A stretch of 64,000 bases of DNA from NCBI RefSeq assembly GCF_000026545.1, contig NC_011601.1; one strand, written 5' to 3'. A program made the translations under genes and the position numbers. Shown piece by piece: positions 23,821-24,935 of the stretch. The notes beneath the pieces were generated by a model. That model did not search any database and was not told the origin of the DNA. It saw only the letters and a program-made list of their open reading frames with translations. Source of the DNA: Escherichia coli O127:H6 str. E2348/69 (GTDB lineage Bacteria > Pseudomonadota > Gammaproteobacteria > Enterobacterales > Enterobacteriaceae). The stretch's first letter is position 1, and each line of letters starts with the position of its first letter.

Positions 23821-23833
23821 CAGCCTTGAGCTG
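23821..23833. repeat. Target-site duplication (left copy) of the IS4 insertion
   Basis: cagccttgagctg occurs at 23821-23833 and again at 24923-24935, flanking the IS4 ends. Confidence 0.75.
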
Positions 23834-24922
23834 TAATGCCAGTCAGTTAAGGATCAGTTGACCGATCCAGTGGCTGTGTAAGAATCCGGAAACGCTCACT
23901 CGTTTCCGGATTTTTTTATGCTCATTGGGCAGGCACTTGATTTGGTATCCCGTTACGATTCTCTGCGTAACCCACTGACTTCTCTGGGGGATTACCTCGA
24001 CCCCGAACTCATCTCTCGTTGCCTTGCCGAATCAGGTACTGTAACGCTACGCAAGCGCCGTCTTCCCCTCGAAATGATGGTCTGGTGTATTGTTGGCATG
24101 GCGCTTGGGCGTAAAGAACCTCTTCACCAGATTGTGAATCGCCTGGACATCATGCTGCCGGGCAATCGCCCCTTCGTTGCCCCCAGTGCCGTTATTCAGG
24201 CCCGCCAGCGTCTGGGAAGTGAGGCTGTCCGCCGCGTGTTCACGAAAACAGCGCAGCTCTGGCATAACGCCACGCCGCATCCGCACTGGTGCGGCCTGAC
24301 CCTGCTGGCCATTGATGGTGTGTTCTGGCGCACACCGGATACACCAGAGAACGATGCAGCCTTCCCCCGCCAGACACATGCCGGGAACCCGGCGCTCTAT
24401 CCGCAGGTCAAAATGGTCTGCCAGATGGAACTGACTAGCCATCTGCTGACGTCGATGACGGACGCCATGCGCTTCCCCGGAGGAGAAATGGCGGATCTGT
24501 ACAGTCATCGCTGGGAAATCGAACTGGGATACAGGGAGATAAAACAGACGATGCAACTGAGCAGGCTGACGCTGAGAAGTAAAAGCCGGAGCTTGTGGAG
24601 CAAGAGCTGTGGGGTGTCTTACTGGCTTATAAACTGGTGAGATATCAGATGATTAAAATGGCGGAACATCTGAAAGGTTACTGGCCGAATCAACGGAGTT
24701 TCTCAGAATCATGCGGAATGGTGATGAGAATGCTGATGACATTGCAGGGCGCTGCACCGGGACGTATACCGGAGCTGATGCACGATCTTGCAAGTATGGG
24801 ACAACCAGTGAAATTACCGACAAGAAGGGAAAGGGCCTTCCCGAGAGTGGTAAAGGAGAGGCCCTGGAAATAACCCACAGCCCCGAAAAAGAGCCAGTCA
24901 GTTGCTTAACTGATCGGCATTA
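23834..24922 (+). mobile_element. IS4 copy with internal deletion (about 1.09 kb versus about 1.43 kb intact)
   Basis: Terminal inverted repeats taatgccagtcagttaagg (left) and cttaactgatcggcatta (right); transposase matches IS4 InsG but lacks about 113 aa. Confidence 0.8.
23918..24873 (+). pseudogene. insG: IS4 transposase InsG, truncated by internal deletion and frameshift
   Basis: ORFs 23918..24640 and 24595..24873 in different frames; the first jumps from ...MELTSHLLT directly to SMTDAMRFPGGEM..., consistent with loss of an internal segment. Confidence 0.8.
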
Positions 24923-24935
24923 CAGCCTTGAGCTG
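24923..24935. repeat. Target-site duplication (right copy) of the IS4 insertion
   Basis: cagccttgagctg, identical to 23821-23833. Confidence 0.75.

What the first reader, a model, noticed from the sequence alone, without database searches (positions are those of the whole stretch)
23821..24935. IS4 inserted in the bamD terminator hairpin, then internally deleted
The 13-bp duplication cagccttgagctg flanking the element reconstructs, when the IS is removed, the palindrome aaaacggcagccttgagctgccgtttttt, which is the bamD rho-independent terminator. The insertion therefore splits the terminator stem and may alter bamD termination or read-through toward raiA. The IS itself lost about 340 bp; the transposase jumps from ...SHLLT directly to SMTDAMRF..., a pattern suggesting deletion between short direct repeats, and it carries a C-terminal frameshift.
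Basis: partly seen in the sequence, partly recalled or inferred. Interest (0 to 1): 0.4.

Follow-up and report, generated by a model that had tools for sequence, protein, structure and literature searches.

The report
Decayed IS4 copy in bamD terminator
This is an ordinary, dead copy of the insertion sequence IS4 sitting in the transcription-terminator hairpin after the essential gene bamD of E. coli E2348/69; IS4 habitually lands in this kind of site, and the element carries a hairpin of its own that probably takes over as terminator.

Summary
Window 23834-24922 is a 1089-bp IS4 remnant with intact 18-bp ends. It is flanked by the 13-bp duplication CAGCCTTGAGCTG. Removing it rebuilds the hairpin-plus-T-run found 17 nt after the bamD stop codon in unoccupied strains.

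Compared with intact 1426-bp IS4, the copy has three defects:
- It lacks 336 bp, lost exactly between the two copies of IS4's longest internal direct repeat (14 bp). This removes the second catalytic Asp.
- It has a 1-bp frameshift.
- It has a strain-specific stop codon.

The window is E. coli E2348/69, where the gene is already annotated as a frameshifted IS4 transposase.

The setting is not special. All 12 IS4 targets I reconstructed have the same A-run/spacer/T-run layout, and most are terminator-like hairpins. The bamD hairpin carries IS4 in 405 of 5426 complete E. coli genomes, in both orientations.

Read-through into raiA is unlikely. IS4 has a stronger hairpin plus U7 about 50 nt inside its left end. 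This step is inferred, not measured.

The order "insertion, then deletion" is likely but unproven, because the same deletion also occurs in an IS4 copy at another locus.

Low interest; already known kind.

The parts
23060..23797 (+). bamD coding sequence (intact; upstream neighbour whose terminator is hit)
   Evidence: ORF list; annotated bamD, WP_000197686.1, in E2348/69
23814..23833 (+). Left half of the split terminator: A-run (23814-17), CGG of the left arm (23818-20) and the left copy of the 13-bp target duplication (23821-33)
   Evidence: the residual hairpin is only -6.0 kcal/mol and has no U-tract; no terminator is called here
23834..24922 (+). IS4 remnant, 1089 bp, transposase reading direction the same as bamD and raiA
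   Evidence: aligns to IS4 1-618 and 941-1426 at about 98%; annotated 'IS4 family transposase, frameshifted'
23834..23851 (+). Left inverted repeat; positions 8-9 read AG, whereas canonical IS4 has GA, so there is no GATC here
23858..23885 (+). Promoter-like site TTGACC-16-AAGAAT with TG; candidate IS4 transposase promoter whose start would fall inside the left arm of the next hairpin (prediction only)
23884..23917 (+). IS4's own hairpin (11-bp stem ATCCGGAAACG/CGTTTCCGGAT, 6-nt loop) followed by a T7 run ending at the transposase ATG; proposed substitute terminator for bamD transcripts
   Evidence: fold -24.4 kcal/mol, z -5.8; stem alone -15.9 against -12.0 for the native bamD hairpin; inverted repeat I3. 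Its function is inferred.
23918..24640 (+). Truncated transposase reading frame (240 codons): N-terminal IS4 domain, first Asp, deletion scar, YREK/Glu motif, then out of frame
24438..24451 (+). Deletion scar: the single remaining copy of the 14-bp repeat GCCATCTGCTGACG; IS4 605-940 (336 bp; aa 179-290 including Asp209) is missing
24581..24584 (+). A4 run where IS4 has A5: 1-bp frameshift, shared by all five window-type remnants compared
24871..24873 (+). TAA where IS4 has TAC; found only in E2348/69 among the strains compared
24905..24922 (+). Right inverted repeat; reads GATC where canonical IS4 has GACT
24923..24944 (+). Right copy of the 13-bp duplication (24923-35) plus CCG and the T6 run of the original terminator
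   Evidence: only a weak fold remains, -5.6 kcal/mol
25090..25131 (+). Putative raiA promoter region (CRP-like TGAGATTTCCATCACA and TATGCT), untouched, about 170 bp from the element
   Evidence: read from the sequence; inference, not tested
25168..25509 (+). raiA coding sequence (intact; downstream neighbour)

Best explanation
A full-length IS4 of an old sequence lineage transposed into the intrinsic-terminator hairpin 17 nt after bamD, because that hairpin fits IS4's target rule: an A-run, about 20 bp, then a T-run. The staggered cuts fell about 3 bp inside each arm and produced the 13-bp duplication.

The copy then decayed in place. Slippage or recombination between IS4's two 14-bp direct repeats removed 336 bp in frame, including the second catalytic Asp. 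A 1-bp loss in an A-run shifted the frame. E2348/69 later added a stop codon and several substitutions.

The element is now an immobile fossil. E2348/69's only other chromosomal IS4 copy is also a pseudogene.

For the host the insertion is probably near-neutral. bamD transcripts pass the broken hairpin and most likely stop about 85-95 nt further on, at IS4's own hairpin plus U7. The raiA promoter is untouched.

Shown: identity, boundaries, target rule, deletion endpoints, loss of Asp209, population distribution. Inferred: termination at the IS4 hairpin, neutrality, and the order of insertion and deletion.
For: Identity and lesions. Pfam DDE_Tnp_1 covers residues 126-352 of the intact protein, but only profile positions 141-186 match in the remnant. 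The motifs are LLAID133G, LMD209KGY and Y307-R310-E314-K321, and residues 179-290 are gone.

Empty site.

Target rule: in 12 distinct IS4 sites (13 insertions), an A-run ends 2-5 nt before an 11-14-bp duplication in all of them, and a T-run starts 3-5 nt after it in 10. Nine fold at -16 kcal/mol or better. The A3-N17-20-T3 pattern occurs only 51 times in the 64-kb window. [quoted passage not shown]

Hot spot: the site holds IS4 in the forward orientation in 335 genomes and in reverse in 70, and is empty in 5009 of 5426. There were at least two independent insertions, since the duplication is 13 bp in some strains and 14 bp in others.

Deletion in place: intact IS4 occupies the same site with the same duplication in other strains. 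The repeat used is the longest in IS4. A second deletion, IS4 972-1252, also recurs in separate copies, so recurrence or copying between elements does happen.

Fossil status: the E2348/69 chromosome has two IS4 places, both annotated as pseudogenes.

Substitute terminator.
Against: No transcript data were available, so termination at the IS4 hairpin and the absence of read-through into raiA are predictions. The simple terminator scan did not call the IS4 hairpin, probably because its stem extension uses up the T-run.

The same 336-bp junction exists in an old-lineage IS4 copy at another locus (MIN10), so a pre-deleted element mobilised in trans is not excluded.

The intact copies now at this site belong to a different sequence lineage from the remnant, so they are not its direct ancestors.

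The remnant's two ends differ at positions 8-9 from both canonical IS4 and the 19 '2013C-type' remnants at the same site, which a single simple history does not explain.
Confidence: 0.85

Rival explanations
1. Deletion first. A 1.09-kb non-autonomous IS4 derivative with intact ends and a dead transposase was mobilised in trans by a full-length IS4 and inserted into the bamD hairpin already deleted.
For: Both 18-bp ends are intact. The same 336-bp junction is found at a second locus in 2 genomes, on the same old-lineage sequence background.
Against: Only 33 of 5426 genomes carry the junction, and 31 of them carry it at this one site. The MIN10 copy has no clear target duplication. The deletion uses IS4's longest direct repeat, so independent recurrence is expected. 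Another IS4 deletion demonstrably recurs or spreads between copies. From general knowledge, IS4-family transposases such as those of IS10 and IS50 act mainly in cis.
Confidence: 0.13
2. The insertion matters functionally. Loss of the bamD terminator lets transcription run through the element and changes raiA (or bamD) expression, and the insertion is kept for that reason.
For: The native hairpin is split, and neither junction keeps a terminator-grade structure: -6.0 kcal/mol without a U-tract on the left, -5.6 on the right. The site is occupied in 7.5% of genomes.
Against: A stronger hairpin plus U7 lies between the broken terminator and the rest of the element. More than 1 kb and the original T-run also lie before raiA. 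The putative raiA promoter is intact about 170 bp downstream. The occupied state occurs in both orientations and with decaying copies, which looks like target preference rather than selection for one regulatory outcome.
Confidence: 0.08
3. The short element or its flanking repeat is an assembly or chance artefact.
For: None found.
Against: The identical 1801-bp region is present in three independent E2348/69-type assemblies and, at 99%, in nine other genomes. The repeat statistics are far beyond chance.
Confidence: 0.01

Closest known systems
IS4 of E. coli K-12 (insG; 1426 bp, 18-bp inverted repeats, 442-aa DDE transposase; Klaer et al. 1981, cited from memory)
   Same: About 98% nucleotide identity over the retained 1089 bp, the same ends, the same domain order, and a duplication within the 10-13 bp range given for the IS4 subgroup (PMC2266710).
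   Different: It lacks IS4 605-940, has a frameshift and a stop codon, carries about 20 substitutions of an older lineage, and positions 8-9 of the two ends are exchanged relative to canonical IS4.
IS4 insertion in the terminator of the pheST attenuator, and the AAA-N20-TTT target consensus (Mayaux et al. 1984, Gene; recalled from memory, not retrievable here)
   Same: The target is a terminator hairpin flanked by an A-run and a T-run. My 12 reconstructed sites give the same rule.
   Different: This is a different gene, and a natural, fixed and decayed copy rather than a laboratory mutant.
IS4 remnant between adhE and tdk (in E2348/69, Nissle 1917 and about 960 other records)
   Same: Same old sequence lineage. 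It is also inserted in the hairpin after the upstream gene, is co-oriented with that gene, and was also killed by a deletion between short repeats.
   Different: A different site and a different deletion (IS4 972-1252 between imperfect 12-bp repeats). Both of its ends read AG at positions 8-9.
Insertion sequences that target REP or palindromic sequences (IS1397, ISKpn1, ISPpu9, ISRm22)
   Same: They are targeted to extragenic hairpin-forming sequences, which gives mostly harmless intergenic insertions (PMC1525189).
   Different: Those elements recognise a repeated sequence family. IS4 appears to read a looser A-run/spacer/T-run layout and also inserts inside genes that happen to contain it: 3 of 10 sampled sites.
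Deletions between short direct repeats (the classic lacI deletion spectrum, Albertini et al. 1982; from memory)
   Same: The endpoints fall exactly in a 14-bp direct repeat and one copy is retained.
   Different: Nothing unusual.

Membership tests
IS4 (ISfinder family IS4, subgroup IS4) | Terminal inverted repeats of IS4 type (-AATR... ends; 18 bp TAATGCC...) | tested here: met
   Both 18-bp ends are present at 23834-51 and 24905-22. The end signature is taken from PMC2266710 Table 1.
IS4 (ISfinder family IS4, subgroup IS4) | Target duplication of about one helical turn (10-13 bp) | tested here: met
   A 13-bp perfect direct repeat.
IS4 (ISfinder family IS4, subgroup IS4) | Near-identity to the reference element over its length | tested here: met
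   98.1% and 97.5% identity over IS4 1-618 and 941-1426.
IS4 (ISfinder family IS4, subgroup IS4) | Single ORF transposase with a complete D..D..E triad and Y(2)R(3)E(6)K motif (i.e. a functional copy) | tested here: not met
   Asp133 and the YREK/Glu314 block are present, but residues 179-290 including Asp209 are deleted and the frame shifts after the YREK block. It is therefore a member by descent but not an autonomous element.
Rho-independent (intrinsic) terminator, for the reconstructed bamD site | G+C-rich stem-loop directly followed by a U-tract, just downstream of a stop codon | tested here: met
   Called in K-12 at L004 2401-2428, 17 nt after the bamD stop. Folds at -17 to -18 kcal/mol, z about -6.
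Rho-independent (intrinsic) terminator, for the reconstructed bamD site | Measured transcript 3' ends at the U-tract | not testable with these tools
   No 3'-end data are accessible. The K-12 record lists no terminator feature.
Rho-independent terminator, for the IS4 left-end hairpin 23884-23917 | Stable stem-loop followed by a U-tract | tested here: met
   An 11-bp stem at -15.9 kcal/mol plus U7. The simple scan did not list it.
Rho-independent terminator, for the IS4 left-end hairpin 23884-23917 | Actually stops incoming transcription | not testable with these tools
   Inference only.
Non-autonomous (MITE-like) IS derivative | Intact ends, no working transposase, and the same deleted form present at several loci with their own target duplications | tested here: inconclusive
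   The ends are intact and the transposase is dead. The junction occurs in 33 genomes, 31 of them at this site and 2 at one other locus that lacks a clear duplication.

The most novel reading that the evidence does not exclude
IS4 may be a 'terminator-seeking' element that brings its own replacement. It homes to A-run/hairpin/T-run sites, and when co-oriented with the upstream gene it supplies a stronger hairpin plus U7 about 50 nt inside its left end. Insertions would then be nearly neutral and persist.

That would explain three observations:
- One hairpin after an essential gene is occupied in 7.5% of complete E. coli genomes.
- Fossil copies survive there.
- The same two internal deletions, and a GA/AG switch that creates or removes a GATC (Dam) site in either end, recur among copies.
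Probability: 0.35. Interest if true: 0.35.

Novelty: already known. Interest (0 to 1): 0.15.

Why it matters
For this window it matters little. The element is a dead IS4 copy that is already annotated, in a well-studied strain, at the kind of site IS4 is known to prefer.

It is a useful caution for annotation: a split terminator next to an essential gene does not imply deregulation when the inserted element carries its own terminator.

The by-products have modest value for people who study IS target choice and decay. They are the 405-of-5426-genome hot spot in both orientations, the duplication length that follows the spacing of the target arms, the recurrent identical deletions, and the variable GATC in the ends. 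The occupied and empty strains also offer a ready natural experiment on terminator replacement.

Tried and rejected
1. Literature. I searched for the classical IS4 target papers and for any report of IS4 at bamD/raiA. Only PMC2266710 gave usable statements. Nothing links IS4 with bamD/yfiO or raiA/yfiA. The E2348/69 genome paper is not held.

2. Inversion idea. I first thought the exchanged end bases (AG on the left, GA on the right) were the scar of an inversion of the element's interior, because the outer 18 bp match a reverse-orientation insertion exactly. I set this aside as unproven. The AG left end is common: 964 records, mostly the adhE-tdk remnant. All four end combinations exist.

3. 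Uniqueness of the deletion. I assumed the 336-bp deletion was unique to the 12 full-coverage hits. The junction search showed 33 genomes and a second locus, which weakened the claim of a strictly in-place deletion.

4. Rfam found nothing in the element or the intergenic region; it matched only the Phe leader.

5. No solved structure is related by sequence, so the catalytic residues were assigned from the Pfam match and the family motifs.

6. No other IS4 fragment exists in the window.

Full report
**Source and setting.** The region 23500-25300 is 100% identical to E. coli E2348/69 (EPEC O127:H6), on the reverse strand of NZ_CP059840.2. The gene order there is rluD, bamD, 'IS4 family transposase (frameshifted)', raiA, pheL, pheA. 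The feature is therefore already annotated as an IS4 pseudogene.

**The observation.**
- CAGCCTTGAGCTG occurs at 23821-23833 and again at 24923-24935. These are its only exact copies in the window; with one mismatch allowed there are 3 matches against 0.12 expected from shuffles.
- The 1089 bp between the repeats begin TAATGCCAGTCAGTTAAG and end CTTAACTGATCGGCATTA, which are the IS4 inverted repeats.
- Removing the element and one repeat copy yields AAAACGGCAGCCTTGAGCTGCCGTTTTTT. This exact sequence is the empty site in strain SCU-115. Nissle 1917 differs by one T in the run, and K-12 by one extra C in the loop.
- In K-12 the terminator scan calls it 17 nt after the bamD stop. It folds at -17 to -18 kcal/mol with z about -6.
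- In the window neither junction is called as a terminator on the + strand.

**The lesions.**
- Against intact 1426-bp IS4, the element matches positions 1-618 and 941-1426 at about 98%.
- The missing 336 bp lie exactly between two copies of GCCATCTGCTGACG (IS4 605-618 and 941-954), the longest direct repeat in IS4. One copy remains at 24438-24451.
- The loss is in frame, so the protein reads ...SHLLT|SMTDAMRF....
- In the 442-aa transposase the catalytic motifs are LLAID133G, LMD209KGY and Y307-R310-E314-K321. This fits the family definition D(60-110)D(100-150)E plus Y(2)R(3)E(6)K (PMC2266710).
- Residues 179-290, including Asp209, are gone. Pfam DDE_Tnp_1 covers residues 126-352 of the intact protein, but only profile positions 141-186 match in the remnant.
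- An A5 run has become A4 at 24581-24584, which shifts the frame.
- E2348/69 alone has TAC changed to TAA at 24871-24873, plus about eight further private substitutions.

**Why this site.** I recovered ten further IS4 contexts using the exact transposase sequence and added the bamD and adhE sites.
- Across these 12 distinct targets (13 insertions), an A-run ends 2-5 nt before the duplication in every case.
- The duplication is 11-14 bp long.
- In 10 of the 12 targets a T-run begins 3-5 nt after it.
- Nine of the 12 targets fold at -16 kcal/mol or better, so they look like intrinsic terminators.
- The bare A3-N17-20-T3 pattern occurs only 51 times in the 64-kb window.
- Three of the ten sampled sites are inside genes that happen to carry the pattern. 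The layout, not terminator function, seems to be what IS4 reads.
- This agrees with the AAA-N20-TTT consensus I recall from Mayaux et al. [quoted passage not shown]
- The duplication length follows the spacing of the arms. At the bamD hairpin it is 13 bp in strains with a 5-nt loop and 14 bp in RM14723, which has the K-12-type 6-nt loop.

**Population view.** Of 5426 complete E. coli genomes:

| State of the bamD hairpin | Genomes | Call |
|---|---|---|
| IS4 in the window's orientation | 335 | 4 |
| IS4 in the opposite orientation | 70 | 42 (junctions checked) |
| Empty | 5009 | 43 |

The 13-bp and 14-bp duplications prove at least two independent insertions. Differences in sequence lineage and orientation suggest more. 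The finding is thus one instance of a hot spot, not a peculiarity of this strain.

**History of this copy.**
- The junction of the 336-bp deletion is present in 33 genomes.
- Twelve carry the window-type 1089-bp element at bamD-raiA.
- Nineteen carry an 809-bp element at the same site, with the same duplication but canonical ends and a second deletion, IS4 972-1252.
- Two carry a 1091-bp element at an unrelated locus with no clear duplication.
- All these remnants, together with the IS4 remnant between adhE and tdk, share substitutions absent from currently intact IS4: 68C, 89T, 109T, 1311A. They descend from an older IS4 lineage.
- The adhE-tdk remnant is E2348/69's only other chromosomal IS4 place and exists in about 960 records. 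It also sits in a hairpin, AAACGG-CCCCTTCTGGGG-CCGTTTTTT, and carries the 972-1252 deletion between imperfect 12-bp repeats.
- Each of the two deletions occurs in more than one copy and in different combinations. At least one of them must therefore have recurred or been copied between elements. In-place deletion at bamD is thus sufficient and, I judge, most likely. A pre-deleted element mobilised in trans is not excluded.

**Consequences for transcription (inferred).**
- The left junction keeps only a 5-bp stem (-6.0 kcal/mol) and no U-tract.
- Fifty nucleotides further, IS4 has an 11-bp stem (23884-23894 with 23901-23911; -15.9 kcal/mol against -12.0 for the native hairpin), followed by T7 up to the transposase ATG.
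- bamD transcripts should end there, about 85-95 nt later than in empty-site strains.
- The one promoter-like site in the region (23858-23885) would start IS4's own transcript inside the left arm of that hairpin. The element's own mRNA would then escape termination while incoming transcripts would not. This is a plausible shield against outside transcription, but it is a prediction only.
- The right junction folds weakly (-5.6 kcal/mol) ahead of the original T6.
- A CRP-like site and a -10-like hexamer upstream of raiA (25090-25131) are intact, about 170 bp beyond the element (read).
- I therefore rate read-through into raiA as unlikely. Only 3'-end mapping can settle it.

**Verdict.** It is a known kind of element in a known kind of place, already annotated, and of low interest. 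The side observations on IS4 target geometry, hot-spot occupancy, recurrent deletions and variable GATC ends are modest leads.

Noticed in passing
window 23841-23842 and 24914-24915 (also L002, L003, L025, L028, L029): Positions 8-9 of each IS4 end switch between GA and AG, which creates or destroys a GATC (Dam) site. All four combinations exist, written as left end, right end: canonical GA,AG; RM14723 GA,GA; this window AG,GA; the adhE-tdk remnant AG,AG. A dinucleotide swap at both ends is unlikely to arise by point mutation, which suggests exchange or conversion between the ends.
   Followed up: partly
L028 18348-19491 (E2348/69 record 2753347-2754490, outside the window); L025, L026: A second fossil IS4 of the same old lineage lies in the hairpin after adhE (12-bp duplication CCCCTTCTGGGG). 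It is 1144 bp and lacks IS4 972-1252. Its left-end sequence is present in 964 E. coli records.
   Followed up: partly
L029 and L030 (bamD site), L031 (other locus, strain MIN10): The same two internal IS4 deletions (605-940 and 972-1252) occur in different combinations in different copies. This implies recurrent deletion at the same short repeats or gene conversion between remnants.
   Followed up: partly
L025 about 2489-2500 versus 3646-3657 (Nissle 1917 adhE-tdk): The left copy of the target duplication reads CCCCAGAAGGGG while the right copy reads CCCCTTCTGGGG: the 4-nt hairpin loop is reverse-complemented in one copy. RM14723 has CCCCATAAGGGG, and E2348/69 has two direct copies. This looks like a small hairpin-loop inversion.
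   Followed up: no
window 23838-23848 and 24893-24903: The terminal 11-mer GCCAGTCAGTT of the left end is repeated in direct orientation just inside the right end. There it forms a hairpin with the right inverted repeat (perfect in canonical IS4, two mismatches here). It may be a nested transposase-binding site.
   Followed up: no
window 11564-12635: Two fragments of a frameshifted IS110-family (RNA-guided) transposase lie between the 5S rRNA gene of an rrn operon and kgtP.
   Followed up: no
window about 32324-42759: A P2-like prophage remnant holds tail genes only, with a serine recombinase (window about 35534-36112) next to oppositely oriented tail-fibre and assembly genes. This resembles an invertible tail-fibre switch.
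   Followed up: no
window about 55754-64000: An island next to ssrA carries espC (cut by the window end) and degraded IS21, integrase and IS3-type genes.
   Followed up: no
window 976-1490: eamB (cysteine/O-acetylserine exporter) is annotated as frameshifted in E2348/69.
   Followed up: no
L016 1-598 (isolate SC477, NZ_LR778152.1): The essential gene bamD is annotated as frameshifted in this assembly. It is more likely a sequencing error than a real lesion.
   Followed up: no
window 25096-25098 and 25124-25126 versus K-12 (L004): Two substitutions relative to K-12 fall inside the putative raiA promoter: the spacer of the CRP-like site, and the base just upstream of the -10 hexamer.
   Followed up: no
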